This document shows, piece after piece, positions 6,538-63,450 of a DNA stretch of 64,000 nucleotides (position 1 is the stretch's first letter; each line of letters begins with the position of its first letter). The stretch is from Botryllus schlosseri. Taxonomy: Eukaryota. The stretch is from the NCBI GenBank assembly GCA_051294905.1, contig CM119372.1:21826001-21890000 (forward strand), given 5' to 3'. Under the pieces are notes generated by a model that saw only the letters and a list, made by a program, of their open reading frames with translations, did not search any database and was not told the DNA's origin. The position numbers and the translations under genes were made by a program.

Positions 6538-6760
6538 TCAAGGAACGACACATGTACAACCCACAGGAACTCTTTCAGTGGTGACTTTGCATTCATCGGG
6601 CGTGCATTGCGAATAATGACGTATCGCGCCTTTCCGCCACTTCAGCACAATCATGGAAGCGTAGATTTCAGAGCTTTTGAGACTAGATATCGGATACCTC
6701 AAAAAGGGGTTGAGACAGGTCTTGCAAAGACATTTGGCAATCGGAAGATGACGAGGATAT
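6538..6760 (-). CDS. IL17: IL-17-like copy A, exon 2 (cystine-knot domain)
   Basis: 223-nt exon, open to TGA at 6540-6538; same length as copy B exon 2 and about 57% identical by hand count. Confidence 0.88.
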
Positions 6761-6969
6761 CTGTGAAGTTAGGAGGGGTACATCAGGATTAACAATCACA
6801 GACGAGATGCAAAAACATCACATCAATCTGTTGGAATTGTGGAATTACATCGTTAGTGAACACCTCAGTGCATGATTTCATAATTACAATGTCGGTGGTG
6901 GATGGAAAGTGGAAAGATAGTGTTTCGTACAAAAAATGACGATATAACAAAAGAGGTGGGAGATCCTAC

Positions 6970-7316
6970 CTATTTCGACGTTTCTACATGCAGATCGCCC
7001 AGGAGGATATGCTCCTTTTGTTTTCGTCAGTGATCGTATCTTGAATATCTCGGAATTTCGGACATCGACCACGACACGACCGACGCGAGCCAAGACTTCT
7101 TCTTTGTCTGCGTCTCCTTGCGGACATCATCAACGACTGCTCTGTTATTCTCAAACAAGATTGCCGGATGGAAGAATCGCTGAGCAGATCGCAATCTGAA
7201 GAATTGTACTTTTCGGCGTAAACGTCTGCGTCGAAATATTGTGCGTACGAATATCTTATCAAGGAAGCACCAGAACCTGCCAGCGTCAAAGCCGATGTAA
7301 TCAATGAGTATTTCAT
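6970..7316 (-). CDS. IL17: IL-17-like copy A, exon 1 (signal peptide, pro-region, start of IL-17 domain; interrupted by TAG)
   Basis: ORF 6984..7316, collinear with copy B exon 1; donor GT at 6969-6968. Confidence 0.8.
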
Positions 7317-8015
7317 TTCGGAAAAGACGTCTGCTAGTTGATCATCGGTGGAATGGTGATCTATACAATAGTGGATATTATATAGATAGTATATTCAGAT
7401 CAAGAGATATATATCAGTTAGTGGCCTGATTTGTCACTTATATAATAATAATGCCGACCACTATAATATCGCTTTGTGGGTCGCGTAATTTTCCGAGGGT
7501 ATACTTTGCATATAATCACATAGTTACAGTTGCGTTGTACGATCTACTAGTAACGTTCCGTTCGTTGCAAAATCAATGTATTCTCATTGCAGATATCCAC
7601 TATTCAAATAGCATTGAAATCAATCTAAAAATACGTGATTGGTTACGCATGACGTAGGTGATGACGTATATTTGTATGCTCTCGCAACAAGGCCCTATGC
7701 GTGGAGTAGATAAGGACATTCCTGATGTCTACTCTGCAAATCCACGAGTATATTTGAAATAAATATACTCCTGTGGCCTAATAGGATTGTACAGTTCATT
7801 GTATATCTAATAAAATAATCATGTAGTATTCCAAAAATAGTTCTTCAATGAATGCTGTTCCAACATTGTTGCACCAAATATAGTTGTTGTCCGGTATATA
7901 TAGAATTCATTCAAACAATATCGTTGTTGATACACCAAGCAAATGTTTAGGCTTTGGTATCAGCTTGGTTATTGGTTATTGATTGAAGGAATTTCGAATG
8001 CGTGAGCGCGAGAAC

Positions 8016-10290: not shown

Positions 10291-11129
10291 GTTAAAGGTA
10301 ATTTGACGGTAATTTTAGACCCGCTTGCCGAGCGCGAAATGTGGTAAAACGGGTATCAATCGAAAGCTGCCGCTGTACTGATTACGAAAATATAAATTTT
10401 ATTCTGCTGATGGCCCTGGAGCCCCCACAATCAGCCTCGAATTTTTCATTGCTATGTAGACTGGAGTAGTGACGCAACAATACTGTCTGGCGAAACGAGA
10501 GCGTAGCTCAGGAGCAAATGAGTGACGTGTTATCATGAGTCGGTGTTATATGCCGTAAAAACATCAAGGACAGAAATATACTACGTATTTTTCCTATTCC
10601 TATTCCTAAGCTCTAATAATAGTGTTATAAAGATATGAAAGGTTACAGTCCAACCCATGTGATATAGCATTTATTGTCGGCAGTTTGAAGTCATGGTAGA
10701 TGCATCGCATTATGTATTCCATCTATTGCATTTTTCAAATCATAACTGGTTGTGATTCTTGCAATGGCATGGAAATAGTATACATGGAGGTGCCAATCCG
10801 TACCTTTCAGTAATAGATGGCAGTAATAAACATCCAGACATTATCAACAGTATTGGATACAGAAGTGATTACCACTTTTGTTGGCTATATTCATCTTTCT
10901 GCTTTCGGTATAATTTCAACTACCATCATTTCTCTTATTAATGAGATATCAGAGAACATGAGCTTAATGCAGTATTCGGGAACCTTTTTGGGCCGAAGAG
11001 CCAGATTGACCCAATATTTTCAAATTTAAATCCCAAAGAGCCATAAATGTCAATCAACTGTTACGTCACAATTAAAATTTCGTGACGTAGGCTATTGGCA
11101 GCACGTTAACATGGAATTCGTATTGTGCA

Positions 11130-25543: not shown

Positions 25544-25766
25544 CTAAGGAAGTACACATGTACACCCCACAGGGACTTCCTCTGTTGTGATTTGACAGGT
25601 CCTCCGTGTACAGGTTGAATAGTGAGAATTAGAATCATTCGGCCACTTGATCACGACCAGGGAAACGTTGATTGCGATACTCTTAAGACTTGGTTGCGGT
25701 AGGCCGGAGACGGGGTCGAGGCAGTGATCGCAGAGGCATTTAGCGACTGGTAACTGACGAGGGTAC
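25544..25766 (-). CDS. IL17: IL-17-like copy B, exon 2 (cystine-knot domain); spliced product 187 aa
   Basis: tcctgtcag|G TAC CCT gives YPRQLPVAKCLCDHCLDP...CQITTEEVPVGCTCVLP*. Phase matches exon 1. Not present in the supplied ORF track. Confidence 0.92.
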
Positions 25767-26410
25767 CTGACAGGAGAAATATATTCAAATATCAGATCCG
25801 TTATATACTATTTAACGGCATATTCTTATGCAATTGAATAGTAGTTTGAATAGCTACAAATGTTAAATGCGTCCGTGGATATTGGAATTTGCACTTGCAT
25901 AGTATTGCTAAGTTCGAGAGCTAAGCGATATAGTTGAGATCACAAATGTGGTAATCAGCTAAGTCAGGATTTTAACAATAGGATATGATAGAATCGATAT
26001 GAACCCTTAGAATCTATCTTTAAAAACAGTTTTCGTGAGATATAAGTTATACAAGATATATCATCCGAATGATAATTGTTCAGAATAGCCCAGTTCCTGA
26101 GCAAGGTTCAGTACTAAATGATTGCGACCGCTGAATCAGACACTATTTATCGAAAGATTACGCATACCTAATGCATACAATATATTTACCATTAGAATGA
26201 ATATTAAAGTCACAATCGAATTTTCCATATCGTCACTTTCTTGCCTATACGACCAACGACTCGAATCACGAATTCTATCGTAATTATGCGGGCTGAAAAC
26301 TTTTCATAAAGCATAGCCTATAGATGTAAGCCGAGGCGAGGTCAAAGCTAGCTTGGTTTACAATATAACAAAGTCCAACGAAATGAGCCAATAACTAGTA
26401 TTGGGATATG

Positions 26411-27661
26411 CAGGGCCGTAACAGCACTTCGCCAGCTAAAAAAAAACGTTGGTCTTGGGCCCCCATATGTTGATGAACCTAGCTTCTGGGGGGCTTCGTC
26501 CCCCAGACTCCCCTCAGGCTGTTCGCTTTTTACCGCTCTTACTTATTCTATACATTGGGGGACGTTTAGTGGGTAAGCTTTTCTCGCCTAGACGCGCCAT
26601 GCGCGAAAATTTTCTATATTTCATGATTCAATCGGTTAATATGATCGGGAATTGCATATATGTTGCTATCAATTTTTATCCTCTCCCTGCTCACGTAATC
26701 AGATTTACAGGTAGAGCTGAGTGAGGTGTGTTTGAAAAGGTAGGACCCCTCAATATTATATTTAAGCATCTTTGGGCGTGTGCCCGTTTGCAGGAATGAA
26801 ACAGCACTTCGTCAGTCCCCGCAAAAATCTTGGGTCTGAGGCTCCCATAGGGTGATAAACCTACCCCCCATCACCTTGTTCGCTATTGCCACGAAATGAA
26901 TTGTATACTGCTTAGTGAGCCAGCGCCAGGCGCAAAAATTTTCGAAAATTCATGATAAAATCGGTCAATAAGATTGGGAATTGCATATATATTGCTATCA
27001 ACTTCTTATCCTCTCTGCTCACGTAATCAGATTAACCGATAGAGATGAGTGAGGTGTCTTGGAAACTGTAGAGCCCGTTGGTATGACTCCTTAACATGAT
27101 GGTATTTCGTGACCTCCTCTCTGCTATATATAATAAAATATAATCGCCATAACGTAGGCTACGAAACTAAAAGACGGACACGATTTCAAATTGGTATTCT
27201 TCACTGGCATATAATTTTTCCCTGCGGGATGGTATTTGTCTTGTGAGGTTCAGATTGCCAAGACAGTATTTTGTAGATATAATGAAGTTTCCGGTCAGCA
27301 TTAGGGCAGTCCTTTTCGGCCAAGGTTTTCTCGCTGCCGATCGTTCTGGCACACTTCTTGGAGTCGCATGTTACATGGCCTACTTTATGTGTCTTGGTGC
27401 GTCGTGGCGCGGTAATGGCGAACGCCAATATGACCATTTCTATAAATCTTGCGTATTTTTTCTTGTGGGAAGAGTACTCAAAAATCAAGATAATTGGCAA
27501 CTTGAAATCGCGCCTACCGCGAAAAAATTTTGAAGAAGTTGCAGAAAGTTTCAAAAAATACTCTATAATTTGTGCTAATTCGCGAAATAATTTTGGGCCC
27601 CCTTTGAGCTCGCCCCCCCCCCCCCAATTGGGGGGATTGGGGTGCAGCAGTTACGGGCCTG
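26411..27661 (+). mobile_element. hAT-type MITE in the IL-17 copy B intron
   Basis: CAGGGCCGTAAC...GTTACGGGCCTG, perfect TSD GGGATATG; internal duplication of about 380 bp. Confidence 0.87.
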
Positions 27662-28100
27662 GGGATATGTAAAGTTCCCGTGTTATACAGGTTCCGATTA
27701 ATTCGCAACATACGGGGCGTTTGGCTTACCGCATCTCATAACAATGACTATGCGTAGTTACTAGTTTACGAAGTCGTTCATGAAGTTTTGTTTTTCGATA
27801 TAGAAAACTTTGACATTGGAATTGCAGCAGGTGCAATGCTCGTATTTCTTTTATATCGACTTAGTCACTTATCTGAGATGTAAGATTCTCTCTTGTACAC
27901 TTCAACTCCGTAGAGATCGCGTTGACACGATGTGATGCTAACGTCCAACTGGCAATATTTCGAATTTAGTAGCAGTAGGTCATCTATAATAATTATTTTT
28001 ACATGTTGTATAGCTGGTAAGTAAACCGTATAATAGGCATTTTACCGTGACTGTTACCGTGACCGTGACTGATATATACGACATCTCTATCGGTATAGAG

Positions 28101-29435
28101 CAGTGCTTCTCAACCAGTGGGTCGTGAAGCTATTTCAGGTGGGCCGCGAAGACGTTCTAACTGTTACACTTTCGTATTCAATTTTCCAACTATTCTAGAC
28201 ACTTTATATTCTCAAGATTAGAAGAGGTAATGCACATGCTCCTCCTCCACATTAAATTGTTTTGTGCCCACGAGCGCTACAAGCCACGTTGCCGTTCTCA
28301 CAATAATTCGGGAGTCAGATTTTCGTCACAGTCATATTAATTGAAGCGTGAAATCCGACAGTGCGTTATTGTGTATGCGTGAGATTGAAATTCATTTTTT
28401 CCTCCAAAGGCCTTGCGAACGCTGATCGGGAAATACAGCAATCCAGCCCGATTTGTCGTTATAATCATCAAACAATTGCCGCAACGCAAGTTAATCATAG
28501 CCCCTTTGTGTTCGACGTAAAGACGAATGGCTGATTATGCGCTTTCTCGTCTGTTGTTGTTCGTGGTATTCATGGACTCATGGTGTTTTTCTACTACAAT
28601 GGTCATTTACACCAGGCCGATATTCTTTATTATGATTCCGCATTTGACGACTTGGAGCAGGGTCCACTTCCAGACTTTTTTAAAACACCGCTTAAGCAGA
28701 TCGGATGGCGAGGAGTTTAGATAAGCTTTTTATGTCTGTAATCATCTGTTACATGCAGGACCTTAACTGCCCCACCCCAATCCCCCAATTGGTGCATCGA
28801 GCTTGAAGAGGGGCAAAAAATTTTCTCATGAATCATCATAAATTGTGGGGTATTTGTTCGGAGAGTTATTGACCTTCTTTCAAATTTTCTTCGCGCAGGG
28901 CGCGAATTGGCATTGTTAGATGTCTTGGTTTTAATAGCGGTATACCCACCCATCTCCCTAAGAGAATAATACGCATAATTCATAGAAATAGGCCTTTCGG
29001 TGTCGGCCATTAATGCCCCACGACACACCAAGACATATGAAGTTTCGGCTAACATGCTACTCCGCGAATTGTGTAGCCAAAAAGGTAGACAGTGAGAAAA
29101 CCTCTGCCGATAAGGATCGAAAACTTCGGTATATGTATGCCGAATTGTCAATGGACTATATACGGTAGGCGCCGAAATGGCTGTCTCCAAATATCGCTGT
29201 CGCCAAAAATTCATAGTAGTATATGTAATTGACAATATCATTGACCGAATGCCATCATGAATTCCGGAAATAGTCACGTTAGGCGCGACCAGATAACTGT
29301 AACGCGCTGACAACAGAAAAACTCGCACCCACGAGCAGTGGTTTAAACGTTAATCGCGAAAGGGCGTCTAGTGGGTCGCGCAATGAAATTTGGATGAAAA
29401 TTGGGTCGCGAACTGAAAATGGTTGAGAAGCACTG
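28101..29435. mobile_element. hAT-type MITE in the IL-17 copy B intron
   Basis: TIR CAGTGCTTCTCAACC, TSD GTATAGAG/GTACAGAG; contains fragments of other families. Confidence 0.87.
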
Positions 29436-29458
29436 GTACAGAGTACACCCTGTGTTAC

Positions 29459-29799
29459 CTGTTGCGTTCCTCTCTCATACAAGTTATCCACGGTGATAAA
29501 CTCTTTTTACTTTCGTCCGGAACTGTATCAGGAATGTTATCGAATGTAGGGCATGTAGTATTGAGGCAATCCTGTTCAGGCACTGCACTTCGTTTAAGCC
29601 TGGCACTCTTCATAAATGTAATCATCGGTTGATTTACTATCGTGAGACACGCATTCTGCAGTTCGGTATCCTTGAACACACTGCAGTCTGAATAGTCGTG
29701 TTTTTCTGGTGTGGAGTTTTCAGTATAATTCTCGGCAAATACTTTTGAAACTGGGAAAGTAACTGACATCACCAGCATCGTAATTAATAAATGCTTCAT
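29459..29799 (-). CDS. IL17: IL-17-like copy B, exon 1
   Basis: MKHLLITMLVMSVTFPVSKVFA (signal-like)...SARLKRSAVPEQDCLNTTCP...KKSLSPWITCMREERNR, ending AG|GTAACA (phase 2). Confidence 0.9.
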
Positions 29800-30892
29800 A
29801 ACGAGACAATTCGCAAGCAATATATTCACTGTATCGATAAGTAATATGTTTTTATTGCACCTAGATCATCTTTCCCTGACTCTTCCAATATATAACATAT
29901 ATTCATACATAATTTGTTGGATTATATAGTAGGATTCTCTGAGTGAGGGAGTAACGCATAAATTTCTTTTTGATCGACATATCTGCAAGTTCCAAATGGG
30001 TAGTCCCCTAATTCGTCTGGTATGCTTTTCTGTTTACTATCGTAATAGATTCCACATGACAATATATGAGTCATAAATGCGGACCTAATTATAAATACCA
30101 ATCATTTCCACGATCATATACAGTAATATCTATTTAGACCATGATAACAATGAAGAAATAATATGATGTTCTGAACCTACAACTAAAAATCACGCTCCGC
30201 GTCCCTGAATATTTAATTGTGACGCTTTCCCGAAACGAGATGAATGAGACGATTAAGATTCTTGTTGTTTCTCATGTCGCAAGATTTGAATTTAGGGATC
30301 GGCGTCTTCTTCATTATTTTCTCCACGATGATGATCATGATCAATGGCGGGTAATAGGGTAATGGGGAATTTTAGTTGAGCGCAATAAACATAGTTTTCT
30401 CCTAAACCGCAATGCCTAAGATTTTGTGTAACATACCGCAATATGTATCGCAGCATAAAATATAACGTGTATACGTGCGTCTTGTATTTATGCGTTACAT
30501 AAAATCGGAGCAAAATAACGAGAACACAATATGTTGTATTGGGCAGAAGTCCCCAATTGCTGATCTCTTAGAATTTGACAGTTAGGAAAAACATTTCTTG
30601 CTGGTCCTACCAAGAAGTCATACATACTATTCATTCTACAAAGCAAGATGCGTTGACGGGTTTGATGGGTATTCATAACTACGTAATTCGGTCCAAAATA
30701 TAAAGGTTCTGCACTTGCGAGTCACTATTCTGGCATGTCTTGTATCTGGCACGTCATAGATAACATTTAACTGACAGCGTCCATGTTCCAACATTTTGTA
30801 CCGAAAATGTCACATATATACCAACTCCTGTCATACCAGTATGCAGCGCCATGGAAACTGCATTACTTTATACCAGACGCGACGATATAGTA

Positions 30893-53147: not shown

Positions 53148-53405
53148 TGTTATGTTCTTGATCTTGTTCGAACAATAACTCAATACGACGAGGTTGCAAT
53201 ATGAAATCCGTATATATTAACAGCAGAATAACTTTAAGACAGGCGACACGATTCAGAGTTCAGTTAAATGAAAGACCACGAGACAACAGAACACAGGGTA
53301 TAAATACAAGCACGACACACAAGGAAATAATGATTGGCTGTAATTACTAATCCAATAGAACGAAAGAGTTGTACGACACTAAAACGTAAATGCACAAACA
53401 TAACA
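53148..53405 (-). repeat. 3' LTR
   Basis: Direct repeat of 55226-55477; preceded on the minus strand by PPT AGGGGAGGA (about 53407-53415). Confidence 0.93.
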
Positions 53406-53823
53406 GTCCTCCCCTATAAGTTGAGAGGGTTGCCCACATTTACGTAGGTCTGTAGAAATCGGTTTGCTTTCTGTTCCTGAGAGGATAACGTCTACCCGAC
53501 GTACGGGCAGGACTAGCTGCAGGGCGTTGTGCCCTATTCCTGACCAATGGTTGCTCAGCTTGGGACTGTTGAGGCTGAGCAACTTCCTGTGTGGCTGTAT
53601 CATTACTTGTGGAAATCAAGCGTGGTTGGAGTTAGTTTTTATGCTTTCTCCAATACCCATGATCTGTTCTTATAATGTACACAACACGCCCCAGTATTTC
53701 CGTCACCACGCCAGCAACCCACTTTGGTCCGCTTCGGTAACTGCGAGCGTAAACCGAGGAACCAATCTCGAAATGAGTGACTGATTGTCCAGGCGTAACG
53801 GGTTTCGATTTGTCGAAGGGCGA

Positions 53824-55170
53824 TCACAAACTTAACAAATTGCGCGGCTGTCGACCATGTAAAATCTCGGCAGGCGTTTTCCAGTCTATGCCCGGGTGCG
53901 GTGCACATCGGTACGTAGCGAGAAGTGTTTGGAGCGCGAAGTTGAGATCTTTTCCCCCAGAACCCACCTGCACGCTTACAGTGCAAATACCTTTCACTTT
54001 CAGTGGCTTGTCGCCATACGCTACGAAAGAGCAATGGTATGCAGAGAGTTTCGGAGAGCCCAAAGTTTTGTACCCAGTCAATCCCACCATGGCGGAGGGT
54101 GCACCAGTGTCCCACTGTGTCGGCAACGGAATGCCGTTGATGCTGGAGTTGATCCAGAGCTGGTTTCCTACGCGTCGATATAGTTGATCGATGTCGAAGG
54201 GGAGGAGCGGCACTGAGCAGAAATTGACGGATGTGACCTGTTGCGTGATACTAGGTTTGGTAGACATGCACACAGGTTTGATATGACCTTTACGACCACA
54301 TTTCTGACATACTGCATGTCGATATTGACAGTCTTTTCTCTGGTGATCGATGAAACAGCGGCTGCAGGATTTCAGTCTTTCCGGGAAGTTGCCTTGGATG
54401 GATTTGGAAGGTTTTTCCCCCTTCTGATAGCTTCCAGTCATTTTGTTGCCGATGGAAGTATCTTTACCGCTACTCTCGCCCTGGATAACCCTATCAGTTT
54501 CCAGCGTTCTCACGTATGTTGCGGCTACCTTGAGAACGTCGTCGAGGGATGGATTGGTTTGTGTTAGACAATGCCGTCTCACATCCGCGTGCGGCGTTTC
54601 TTTAATGATGAGATCGCGCATTAGCTCATCATCGTAGCTCTGATCACAGCCATCTCTTGAGCATATGAAGTTGCAATCCTTGGAGATCCCGCGTAGAGTT
54701 GCGATCCAATCGACGTACGATTGTCCCGGCTGCATTTTGCAATTGTAAAATTCGTACCTGGCTGCTTGCACATGAATGGAGTCCTTGAAGTGTGTAGACA
54801 ACTTCTCAGTCAACGCGTCGAAGGATTGTGCACTGACATCAGCAGCACCAAACAAATTACGTAGGAGCGAGTACGTTTCAGGTCCAACCCATGAGAGTAG
54901 ACACGCTCGTTTCTTCTCCATGTTGGAAATGCCGTAAATTGCTAGGTGATGGTTGAATCGCTGAAGATATTGGTCCCATTTCTCCTTTGATTTTACGAAA
55001 GAATCAAACTTGGGAGCGGTAGCTTCAGATGTTGACGCACCGGGACTCAACCTCTGCGTTAATTGCGCCATTTCTTCTTTGTGCTGTGCCAGCTCTTCTT
55101 TGTGCTGTGCTCGCTGTTCCGCCATCATTTCCTGTTGCTTCTCTAGAAGCTTCAATATACTTGCTTCCAT
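53824..55170 (-). CDS. gag: Gag-protease polyprotein fused in frame to an integrase remnant (448 aa from ATG)
   Basis: PKFD...WDQYLQRF Gag start; zinc knuckles CSRCFIDHQRKDC and CQKCGRKGHIKPVC; protease DTGA; then LLATYRCAPH...TPAEILHGRQPRNLL (end of the integrase core). Confidence 0.9.
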   Translation of the reverse strand: MEASILKLLEKQQEMMAEQRAQHKEELAQHKEEMAQLTQRLSPGASTSEATAPKFDSFVKSKEKWDQYLQRFNHHLAIYGISNMEKKRACLLSWVGPETYSLLRNLFGAADVSAQSFDALTEKLSTHFKDSIHVQAARYEFYNCKMQPGQSYVDWIATLRGISKDCNFICSRDGCDQSYDDELMRDLIIKETPHADVRRHCLTQTNPSLDDVLKVAATYVRTLETDRVIQGESSGKDTSIGNKMTGSYQKGEKPSKSIQGNFPERLKSCSRCFIDHQRKDCQYRHAVCQKCGRKGHIKPVCMSTKPSITQQVTSVNFCSVPLLPFDIDQLYRRVGNQLWINSSINGIPLPTQWDTGAPSAMVGLTGYKTLGSPKLSAYHCSFVAYGDKPLKVKGICTVSVQVGSGGKDLNFALQTLLATYRCAPHPGIDWKTPAEILHGRQPRNLLSL

Positions 55171-55203
55171 GATATATACAATATTCGTCGCAGAAATAAC
55201 TAT

Positions 55204-55223
55204 GAATCCGACTTCTGACACCA
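55204..55223 (-). promoter_or_regulatory. Primer binding site, tRNA-Leu
   Basis: Minus strand TGGTGTCAGAAGTCGGATTC, complementary to the tRNA-Leu 3' end (recalled as ...GAATCCCACTTCTGACACCA) with one mismatch. Confidence 0.8.
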
Positions 55224-55225
55224 AA

Positions 55226-55477
55226 GTTCTTGATCTTGTTCGAACAATAACTCAATACGACGAGGTTGCAATAAGAAATCCGTATATATTAACAGCAGAA
55301 TAACTTTAAGACAGGCGACACGATCCAGAGTTCAGTTAAATGAAAGACCACGAGACAACAGAACACAGGGTATAAATACAAGCACGACACACAAGGAAAT
55401 AATGATTGGCTGTAATTACTAATCCAATAGAACGAAAGAGTTGTACGACACTAAAACGTAAATGTACAAACATAACA
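55226..55477 (-). repeat. 5' LTR
   Basis: Direct repeat of the 3' LTR with about 3 substitutions seen by eye; lacks the inner-terminal ATAACA. Confidence 0.93.
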
Positions 55478-56265
55478 GTTTCGGTGAACATGCCTCTATC
55501 ATTTTGTGCAAATGTTTCATCGCCGACGATCTCGCTGCGAGCGCGCAAGCGAAGTCGCATGTTGGACGACACGTTATCTTCTAATTTCGAATATAGTAGG
55601 AGTAAATTCTGTAAATGACGTGTATTTATAATTTTCAGGGGGGCTCCAATATTAAATGCAAGAAGTCGAGTGACGATAAATCATACGAAGTGCTTAGAAA
55701 AATTCCAAGTCAAATAAATCTGCTATGGAATATTCTACTTTATGGTCATATACGAAGATCTGCGATAAATGCTGCTGGACCTTGGTTACGCCAATGCGTC
55801 GGAACTGATGTTTTAGTCATCATCAATTTTCGTAGTCAGGCTAATCAAATTTTGATTGGCCTTGCAATTTTACCTGATGATATAACTAATTTCGAGAATT
55901 ACCTCGCGGGCCACACAAAACCTTCTAGCGCGCAAAATTTGGCTAGCGGACCACGGGTTGGCCGCCACTGATCTATATCGTTACTAATAACAGTGATTGA
56001 TAGTACATAAAAATCCTATTTTAGTTATTATTAGTTATTTAAAGATACATTCGAAAGCAATTGTTTTCATGATAAAGAAGTTGGAGTCGGAGTCGAAGTC
56101 AGGGACAGTTTCACAAACTCCGACTCCGACTCCAGTCAGTATTTTCCCCACGACTCCGACCCCAACTCCAAGGCGTGCTAAAAAGAGACTCCGACTCCAT
56201 TAACCGAAAATTAGCCAAATTCTGCCTCCGACTTCACCGACTCCGACTCCGACTCCACAGCCCTG

Positions 56266-61502: not shown

Positions 61503-63450
61503 CAGGGTTGTAATGACTCGAGTCATGACTCGACTCGAGTCAGACTCGAGTCACGATTTTTTTGTGACTCGACTTGGACCGAGTCATTTTCTTGAAATGG
61601 GAAAATGACTCGACTCGACTCAAGTCATTATTTGGATTGACTCGACTTGTACTCGAGTCATTACGCATGACTCGACCCAAGTCATTGACTCGGCTTATTT
61701 TATATGACTTGAAGATGAAGAAATTTGCGAATCGTAATGGTTAGATCAACGCATCTGACGAATTCTGCCGACATCGCTATTTGTCACCACTGCTTTCGTT
61801 GCACTCGTCTGATATCAGATATGCCGCCGTAAAAGTAACAGACAATGGTACCTGGCTAGTAGCAATGCATTGCACAAAATCATCCAGTGATGAAGAGGTA
61901 ATAGATCCTCCGCAATCAAAGTACTCAAGACTATACAATCAAACAATCGAAACATAGTTCAATTAGAGCCAATGAAATGACTCAGATGGTCAAGTACTTG
62001 GAAGACACTGATAAGCTCATGTGCGGATTTGAAGGCGATGATTCTTTGCATTTTTGGGCGACTAGAAAGAATGAGTATCCAATGCTCTTCAGTGTGGTTC
62101 AAAAATGCTGGTCAATTCCTGCATCTAGTGCGCTAGTGGAACGTGTATTCAGTAGATGTGGATTTATTATAAGTCCATGCCGCTTTAACATATCTGAGGA
62201 TCTCCCTTTCACTTTAGTAGTTCTGGAGTGTAACTCATTGATTTGATCTGCTGTCTGTGAAAACACACAATACCCTCCGTCCATTTGACGTTTTGTTAGG
62301 TATGTGCATTGTGCACGTGAGTAATAATGAATGGCTAATGTTGTGTAATGTTTGTACAATAGGGCTGTTCAAAAATAACTTCTTTTTTATTTTACTGGTT
62401 GGCTACTTGATAAAACTATTATGTAGCATAAAACGAACACTGAATCTGGCTTAATTTTGAAAAATAGAATCAATGATATGAGAGGAGAAAATTTTGGATT
62501 TGAAAATAAATGGAGTAATTTTAGTGAGAAATTCTTTCATATAATATAATTACATACTAGTAGTAAGCCACCCTAATAACTTCGCTTCTTCTAGTTGGAA
62601 TTGAGCCAAATTTGCCATGAATCATATTTTTACACAATCTAACCATATCACGAGGTAGCCGGTAGAATTCGAAAATCTCTATTTGTAATTAATCCAAAAT
62701 TTTCTCTCATAGCATTGCTTTCTACTGGTTGGGATTGAGCCAAAATTAAGTTATTTTAGGCAATCTAACAATTTCAAGAAGGAGCCTCCTTTTTGAGATT
62801 TTGTCCTCTTTTTTGAGAATTTTTGGTAAATGTAGGGCAAATTCGACTAAGATACGGTAAATCAGCACTGAAGTAACGCTCCGGCGGCTATTTCGTGAGC
62901 TGAGCAGGAAAGTTGACCTTTTTTTATTCAAATACCTGATAATGTGAAAGAAAAACTGTACCTCTACATCTACATAAACATGCATATGTTGATTCTCTAT
63001 CAGCTGATATCTAGACGTGAATTCGTTGGTTATCTATAAGTTATTTGTGAGCTGTCGTCGATGTGCTCGTAATAAAAACTGAATGTGATGTATCAGACTG
63101 ACAAGACAGATATTTGATTTAAAGTTCTACGATTAGTTAACTTATCATATTGGCGGCCTGTCTCGTCTATCTGTAGCATCGGTAAATGAGGCCAGGACCT
63201 GTCCGTCATCTGCCTAAACATACATGTGCCAAGACTCTGGTAGGGACGAAATAAGCATGTTTGGCAAGCAAGGAATTCGATATCGCCCTAGATGGATTGG
63301 GAACATAAGTTAAACATGACTTCAATGCTGTGACTTGGACTCGGACTCGAGTCGGTGATGAATTGAAAATGACTCGACTTGACTCGAGTCAAAACCACAA
63401 AAGTAAGATTGACTCGTGACTCGGAACCATGTGACTTGGTTACAACCCTG
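61503..63450 (+). mobile_element. hAT element with transposase dimerisation-domain remnant
   Basis: TIR CAGGGTTGTAA, perfect TSD ATGAAAAT. ORF 61977-62246 LHFWATRKNEYPMLF...SIPASSALVERVFSRCG is a hAT C-terminal dimerisation motif. Confidence 0.9.

What the first reader, a model, noticed from the sequence alone, without database searches (positions are those of the whole stretch)
25544..29799. IL-17-like cytokines with a Cys-paired pro-domain and furin-type cleavage site
Seen: both paralogues have signal peptide, then a ~45-50-aa segment with a conserved Cys pair (SDCSVFKDTELQNACL / SDCDLLSDSSIRQSCL), then a basic site (ARLKR|S; RRRRQRR|S), then the IL-17 domain. Established: R-X-K/R-R is the furin/proprotein-convertase consensus; pro-domain processing is typical of other cystine-knot ligands (TGF-beta, neurotrophins) and is not the standard architecture of vertebrate IL-17A/F. 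Inference: these are proteolytically activated pro-cytokines, possibly also releasing a disulfide-bonded N-terminal peptide.
Basis: partly seen in the sequence, partly recalled or inferred. Interest (0 to 1): 0.72.

Follow-up and report, generated by a model that had tools for sequence, protein, structure and literature searches.

The report
Sea-squirt IL-17 with likely furin propeptide
This is a real IL-17 immune cytokine gene, probably from a sea squirt, whose protein carries a small front segment followed by a furin cutting signal, a layout shared with other sea-squirt IL-17s and many vertebrate IL-17C proteins, which suggests that some chordate IL-17s are trimmed during secretion.

Summary
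Observation confirmed, with one omission. 25544-29799 (-) is a two-exon, 187-aa IL-17 gene (Pfam IL17 E 4e-13): likely signal peptide, 48-aa segment with C-x11-C, RLKR|S, then the knot. The layout is not peculiar to this locus: by eye, 4 of 5 published Ciona IL-17s have the Cys pair and 3 of 5 an R-X-K-R|S site at the same place; 11 of 17 vertebrate IL-17C(-like) hits have R-X-[KR]-R there (0.58 of 18 expected from shuffles). A Styela homologue and Ciona IL-17-2 keep the Cys pair but lack the site, as does human IL-17C, so an obligatory activation switch is doubtful. Best reading: convertase trimming of an untethered, internally disulfide-bonded helical segment (about 0.6); activation is unproven (about 0.2). 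Processed IL-17-domain precursors are already described (crustacean CFSH); I found no such description for chordate IL-17 in ten searches of an open-access library. No cleavage or expression was shown.

The parts
29459..29799 (-). IL-17 gene A, coding exon 1 (aa 1-113 plus 2 nt): signal peptide, pro-segment, basic site, first part of the IL-17 core
   Evidence: 34% identical to exon 1 of gene B
29734..29799 (-). Probable signal peptide, aa 1-22, small residues at -3 and -1
   Evidence: hydropathy only; no SignalP run
29590..29733 (-). 48-aa pro-segment (aa 23-70), 5.6 kDa, Cys39 (29685-29683) and Cys51 (29649-29647), two N-glycosylation sequons
   Evidence: same C-x11-C in B and Styela P0006
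29590..29601 (-). R-L-K-R (aa 67-70) followed by Ser: furin-type consensus, 12 aa before the CP cysteine
25767..29458 (-). Phase-2 GT-AG intron, 3692 nt, filled with repeats
   Evidence: same position and phase as in B; junction not seen in reads
28101..29435 (.). Non-autonomous element with 14-nt terminal inverted repeats and an 8-bp target duplication (7 of 8 match), hAT-like, ending 23 nt from the splice donor
   Evidence: 'hAT-like' rests on recalled family traits
25544..25766 (-). Gene A exon 2: IL-17 cystine-knot core with an extra C-x4-C pair
   Evidence: Pfam PF06083 E 4.1e-13; alignment
29922..29928 (-). TATA-like box about 130 nt upstream of the ATG
   Evidence: consensus match only, no chance control, start site not mapped
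6970..7316 (-). Paralogue B exon 1: same layout, Cys42/Cys54, R-Q-R-R|S at 7109-7098
6984..6986 (-). In-frame TAG at codon 111 of B, 14 nt before the splice donor
6538..6760 (-). Paralogue B exon 2 (IL-17 core, intact), behind a 209-nt phase-2 intron
   Evidence: Pfam E 4.4e-13; 56% identical to A

Best explanation
Gene A encodes an ascidian IL-17 cytokine made as a pre-pro-protein. After signal-peptide removal, a furin-type convertase in the secretory pathway cuts after RLKR, giving a 117-aa (13 kDa) cystine-knot chain that dimerises and binds an IL-17 receptor, and a 48-aa helical segment closed by its own Cys39-Cys51 bond and not covalently tied to the core. The cut most likely tunes the cytokine (folding aid, retention, half-life or affinity) and is not an on/off switch. 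Shown: gene structure, domain, motif, recurrence in relatives. Inferred: signal cleavage, convertase cut, disulfide pairing, dimer, receptor.
For: Canonical site with Ser at P1' in A and B and in 3 of 5 Ciona IL-17s, 3-4 aa before the CP cysteine (by eye). Same place in 11 of 17 vertebrate IL-17C(-like) hits; 11 of 18 rows against 0.58 expected from shuffles, 0 of 66 core windows, 2 of 34 further-upstream windows. In the model of Styela P0006 the Cys-pair segment is three helices (69-111; block pLDDT 77-90 over 71-100, 68 over 101-110) and the stretch aligned with the site is a low-confidence linker (113-131). The match to the receptor-bound IL-25 chain begins at the CP cysteine (model 135, Z 8.0, rmsd 3.9, 87 aligned), so the cut would spare the core. 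Even Cys counts on both sides: 2 + 10 in A, 2 + 8 in P0006, 2 + 6 in four Ciona proteins (by eye). furin1 is reported across all bilaterians in a survey that included Ciona (10.1101/802215). Precedent: CFSH.
Against: No cleavage was observed. The nearest full-length relative found (Styela P0006) and Ciona IL-17-2 keep the Cys pair without the site; 6 of 17 IL-17C hits and the human, medaka and both fugu IL-17C lack it. B's site is unremarkable against its own composition (35% of shuffles) and B carries a stop. The vertebrate rows are kin, so they are few independent events. The structural support is from a homologue that lacks the site; A's own exon-1 model is poor (mean pLDDT 52). The pro-segment is the least conserved part between A and B (25% identity against 44-57%).
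Confidence: 0.6

Rival explanations
1. Latent pro-cytokine: the helical segment blocks receptor binding until a convertase removes it, as for TGF-beta.
For: The segment is folded in the Styela model, its Cys pair recurs in 4 of 5 Ciona proteins, and the site lies just before the receptor-binding core.
Against: Proteins with the pair but no site (P0006, Ciona IL-17-2) would be locked off; the site is gained or lost among IL-17C orthologues, even between two pythons of one 90% cluster (P0007 without, P0037 with). The segment is 48 aa against 210-432 aa for TGF-beta-family pro-domains (PMC8589418).
Confidence: 0.2
2. No processing: the N-terminal helical module is part of the mature cytokine and the basic cluster is a surface patch (glycan or tunic binding) in a flexible linker.
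For: The Cys pair is more constant than the site among ascidians (pair in 7 of 8, site in 5 of 8, counting A, B, P0006 and five Ciona proteins). B's site is part of a wider Arg-rich run.
Against: A has one isolated R-X-K-R in an otherwise Arg-poor, acidic segment (0.2% of shuffles); all five ascidian sites have the exact P4/P2/P1 pattern and Ser at P1', which a mere charge patch does not need.
Confidence: 0.2
3. The released 48-aa disulfide-bonded peptide is itself a signal or antimicrobial peptide, and truncated B still makes it.
For: Same 48-aa length and Cys spacing in A and B; B's stop lies behind the site and only 14 nt before the last junction, which by the recalled 50-nt rule would escape decay; both listed differences in run X5 leave the Cys pair intact.
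Against: Low identity (25%) and opposite charge (pI 5.6 against 8.8); B's exon 2 is still intact with all cysteines (pN 0.28, pS 0.65), which points to a recent null allele or an assembly error, not a peptide-only gene.
Confidence: 0.07

Closest known systems
Ciona IL-17-1 (NP_001123347), IL-17-3 (NP_001123348) and model 203738 (PMC4517768, S1 Dataset)
   Same: Two exons, N-terminal Cys pair, R-X-K-R|S just before the CP cysteine, Ser/Ser knot.
   Different: Cys spacing 9, 5 and 5 instead of 11; six core cysteines instead of ten; site 3-4 aa from CP instead of 12. The paper has no hit for 'cleav'.
Styela clava XP_039267381.1 (P0006) and XP_039268648.1 (P0001)
   Same: C-x11-C and the following helix align; extra C-x4-C in the core; grouped with A and B at 98/96 with a long-branch warning.
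   Different: P0006 is 242 aa, has a 12-aa longer linker and no canonical site; lacks both Cys78 and Cys107. P0001 is an N-terminally partial model.
Vertebrate IL-17C
   Same: Commonest named hits; 11 of 17 carry R-X-[KR]-R 5-9 aa before the CP cysteine, among them frogs, axolotl, gecko, lungfish, pig, shrew, Tasmanian devil.
   Different: Typically one upstream Cys and seven in the core (bichir has lost one on each side), so a cut segment would stay disulfide-tethered; human lacks a canonical site.
Crustacean female sex hormone (CFSH)
   Same: Signal peptide, precursor-related peptide, basic site, IL-17-domain mature chain (PMC9662296, PMC6056722).
   Different: Dibasic KR site of a neurohormone, 22-33-aa peptide, 167-168-aa mature chain with eight cysteines; none of the 23 hits that I looked up by name is a CFSH.
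TGF-beta and NGF/PDGF pro-proteins
   Same: Furin-type removal of an N-terminal pro-region from a related knot fold (PMC8589418; NGF Z 5.1).
   Different: Other families; the same review says that among human interleukins only the IL-1 family has a pro-domain.

Membership tests
IL-17 family (PF06083) | Profile score above the curated cut-off | tested here: met
   50 and 49.9 bits, cut-off 24
IL-17 family (PF06083) | Four knot cysteines (C-x4-C, C-x-C) and, in chordates, two serines in place of the third pair | tested here: met
   Cys124/129/182/184, Ser102 and Ser143; Ser rule from PMC4517768
IL-17 family (PF06083) | IL-17 fold | tested here: inconclusive
   Shown for the Styela homologue (Foldseek E 4e-7; Z 9.0, rmsd 3.3, 83 aligned); the spliced gene A protein itself was not folded
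IL-17 family (PF06083) | Secretory signal peptide | tested here: inconclusive
   Hydropathy only
IL-17 family (PF06083) | Dimer that signals through a SEFIR-domain receptor | not testable with these tools
   No genome held; needs an assay
IL-17C orthologues | Groups inside IL-17C | tested here: inconclusive
   A and B group with Styela proteins, outside 18 IL-17C rows, but the tree holds no other subfamily and warns of long branches
IL-17C orthologues | One upstream Cys and seven core Cys | tested here: not met
   A has 2 in the pro-segment and 10 behind the site against mostly 1 + 7
CFSH | Precursor-related peptide and basic site before an IL-17 domain | tested here: met
CFSH | 167-168-aa mature chain with eight cysteines | tested here: not met
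   117 aa, ten cysteines
Furin-type convertase substrates | R-X-K/R-R in an exposed linker of a secreted protein | tested here: met
   Motif; linker from models, (the latter of low confidence)
Furin-type convertase substrates | Observed cleavage | not testable with these tools
   Needs protein work

The most novel reading that the evidence does not exclude
A convertase site in front of the CP cysteine is an ancestral feature of one chordate IL-17 lineage (amphioxus 127768, most ascidian IL-17s, IL-17C of amphibians, reptiles, birds and many mammals including pig) and gates or tunes cytokine activity, releasing the segment in ascidians and leaving it disulfide-tethered in IL-17C; humans lost the canonical site. 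This would be an overlooked layer of IL-17 control that differs between humans and animal models.
Probability: 0.25. Interest if true: 0.7.

Novelty: new variant of a known kind. Interest (0 to 1): 0.45.

Why it matters
Interleukins other than the IL-1 family are described as having no pro-domain in humans (PMC8589418). If ascidian IL-17s and many IL-17C proteins are cut by furin, recombinant full-length proteins used in invertebrate and livestock work may not be the native ligand, IL-17C results may not carry over between pig, chicken, frog and human, and IL-17 joins the other knot ligands in being made as a precursor. The test is cheap. If the cut does nothing, this is an ordinary new ascidian IL-17.

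Tried and rejected
Word-based homologue searches: exon 1 found no candidate, exon 2 none at E 0.001, the ascidian alignment only 2 proteins already held; so no true orthologue of A from another species was found, and conservation rests on paralogues and distant ascidians. Alignment A3 misplaces the exon-1 rows and was used only as a search query. The search for related loci gave no usable pattern. Atlas: no usable hit for exon 1 or for the Styela helical module; L27, saposin and LYR look-alikes of that module are at Z 4.4 or lower or under the tool's bar and were not accepted. A two-sequence profile found nothing in the PDB; the 26-row profile found IL-17A, F and IL-25. Complex prediction of the Styela module with its core dimer: no answer. 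Reads: no RNA holder listed; no read lay on gene B or on A exon 2 in X23 (about 6% read) or X21 (about 3% read); exon 1 of A was outside the stretch laid. One X5 contig spans B 6956-7544 with 15 differences but only two are listed (S61P and a silent change in Cys54), so whether the TAG is shared is unresolved. No third IL-17 copy in the window. No NF-kB consensus within about 600 nt upstream of either gene; the upstream regions share no more than 10 nt. Earlier findings: none by place, words or sequence. Rejected: tethering of Cys39/51 to the extra core pair Cys166/171, because four Ciona proteins keep the N-terminal pair without that core pair. Considered: a weaker in-frame donor in B (exon ending at 6988) would skip the TAG but delete six residues of the conserved hairpin; not excluded, not seen.

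Full report
Observation. The finding's span is the coding region of a minus-strand two-exon gene (A): 29799-29459 and 25766-25544, joined across a 3692-nt GT-AG phase-2 intron, 187 aa. A paralogue (B) lies 22 kb away on the same strand, 7316-6970 and 6760-6538, with a 209-nt intron at the same position and phase, which is the main support for the junction in A; no read showed it. Both second exons score as Pfam IL17 (E 4e-13). Signal peptides are judged from hydropathy alone. Its exon 2 is intact and A/B show pN 0.35 against pS 0.72 (near saturation), so the stop looks recent or is an assembly error; the read lay did not settle it. A profile scan of all six frames found no third copy.

What it is. 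Serines stand where non-chordate IL-17s have a third Cys pair (rule from PMC4517768), so the source is a chordate. An HMMER search with the two second exons gave 35 hits. I looked up 23 of the 35: two are Styela clava proteins, 16 are named vertebrate IL-17C or IL-17C-like, one is unnamed but clusters with bullfrog IL-17C, four are unnamed. A and B share an extra C-x4-C with the Styela and unnamed proteins and group with Styela at 98/96, under a long-branch warning and in a tree without other IL-17 subfamilies. An ascidian source is thus an inference. A model of the full-length Styela protein P0006 matches IL-17A best.

Is the layout more than chance? In A the motif arises in 0.2% of shuffles of residues 23-82; in B in 35%, because B is Arg-rich. 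Among 36 fetched proteins I dropped 16 without the S-x-S-P-W anchor and 2 with too little upstream sequence. Of the remaining 18, 11 have R-X-[KR]-R within 25 aa before the CP cysteine, against 0.58 expected from shuffling the preceding 60 aa; controls were 0 of 66 core windows and 2 of 34 further-upstream windows. All 11 are among the 17 vertebrate rows (frogs, axolotl, gecko, one lungfish, pig, shrew, Tasmanian devil); python, a second lungfish, stingray, bichir, opossum and squirrel rows lack it, and so does Styela P0006. Two rows are one bullfrog cluster and all are kin, so this is one inherited feature, not 11 events. In the S1 Dataset of PMC4517768, read by eye: 4 of 5 Ciona IL-17s have an N-terminal Cys pair, 3 of 5 have R-X-K-R|S 3-4 aa before CP; 1 of 8 amphioxus proteins has a site at that place; IL-17C has it in 2 of 6 (chicken, Xenopus; not human, medaka, two fugu); IL-17A/F has a canonical site in 1 of 16, directly behind the signal peptide. 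Some worm, mollusc and urchin entries have canonical sites at varied places; I did not count them. Two long entries per group were cut at 400 letters.

How it most likely works. The Styela model shows the Cys-pair segment as three helices followed by a low-confidence linker that aligns with the basic site; A's own exon-1 model is poor but puts helices at the same places and the site in coil. The match to receptor-bound IL-25 starts at the CP cysteine, so a cut after Arg70 leaves the 117-aa core whole. Cysteine counts are even on both sides in A (2 + 10), P0006 (2 + 8) and four Ciona proteins (2 + 6), so the pair most simply bonds to itself and the segment is free after a cut. IL-17C differs: mostly 1 + 7, with bichir at 0 + 6, which implies a tethered segment. 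furin1 is reported in all bilaterians surveyed (10.1101/802215). I therefore put convertase trimming with a tuning role at about 0.6, a true latency switch at about 0.2 and no cut at about 0.2. Against a switch: Styela P0006, Ciona IL-17-2 and human IL-17C have no canonical site, and the site differs between two pythons of one cluster. An inflammatory role is inferred from ascidian IL-17s induced by LPS, wounding and allogeneic resorption (PMC10087333; PMC8398012); expression of A was not seen here.

Comparison and novelty. A is an IL-17 family member by profile and residues; it is not shown to be an IL-17C orthologue and is not a CFSH. It works, if cut, like CFSH, for which signal peptide, precursor-related peptide, KR site and IL-17 domain are in print, so processed IL-17-domain precursors are known. 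For chordate IL-17 I found no description of convertase processing in ten searches (listings only, top 14-25 rows where more matched), and a review says that only IL-1-family interleukins have pro-domains in humans. The library lacks most subscription papers; the original Ciona and Botryllus IL-17 papers and the first CFSH paper were not seen and may mention processing; bioRxiv supplements are closed. What I saw: passages of PMC9662296, PMC6056722, PMC5457136, PMC8353272, PMC8398012, PMC8589418, PMC10087333 and 10.1101/802215; passages and the whole supplement of PMC4517768. Furin subsite preferences, the 50-nt decay rule and the hAT label are recalled, not from a call.

Verdict. A real, ordinary-family gene with a real precursor-like layout that is shared across ascidians and much of IL-17C. 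New variant of a known kind; interest 0.45. The value lies in the cross-chordate pattern, which one cleavage experiment can test.

Noticed in passing
window 6984-6986 (-): In-frame TAG in IL-17 paralogue B, 14 nt before the donor; exon 2 intact. Recent null allele or assembly error; a weaker in-frame donor just upstream could skip it.
   Followed up: partly
P0003-P0036, P0037-P0057 (vertebrate IL-17C): Polybasic furin-type site before the CP cysteine in frog, axolotl, gecko, lungfish, pig, hippo, peccary, shrew and devil IL-17C, absent in human; one upstream Cys with seven core Cys suggests a tethered N-terminal piece.
   Followed up: partly
window 28101-29435: Element with terminal inverted repeats and a near-perfect 8-bp target duplication inside intron A, ending 23 nt from the splice donor; an older inverted repeat pair at 27310-27661 / 28756-29116 overlaps it.
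   Followed up: partly
window 53154-55479: Young LTR retrotransposon remnant: 254-nt repeats 98.8% identical around a 475-aa minus-strand frame with weak gag and zinc-knuckle hits; no full pol.
   Followed up: partly
window 61905-62246 (+): hAT transposase C-terminal dimerisation remnant (Pfam E 7.6e-10).
   Followed up: no
window 10531-10586: About a thousand RNA reads in X23 match only this short stretch, with a poly-A-like loose end behind it; probably the 3' end of a transcript from elsewhere that shares a repeat.
   Followed up: no
window 7136 (+): All listed X5 contigs differ here, giving Pro at B codon 61, the residue that gene A and Styela P0006 have at the aligned place.
   Followed up: partly
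gene A Cys78 and Cys107: Both present in A and B and both absent in Styela P0006, which suggests an added disulfide in the mature chain.
   Followed up: no
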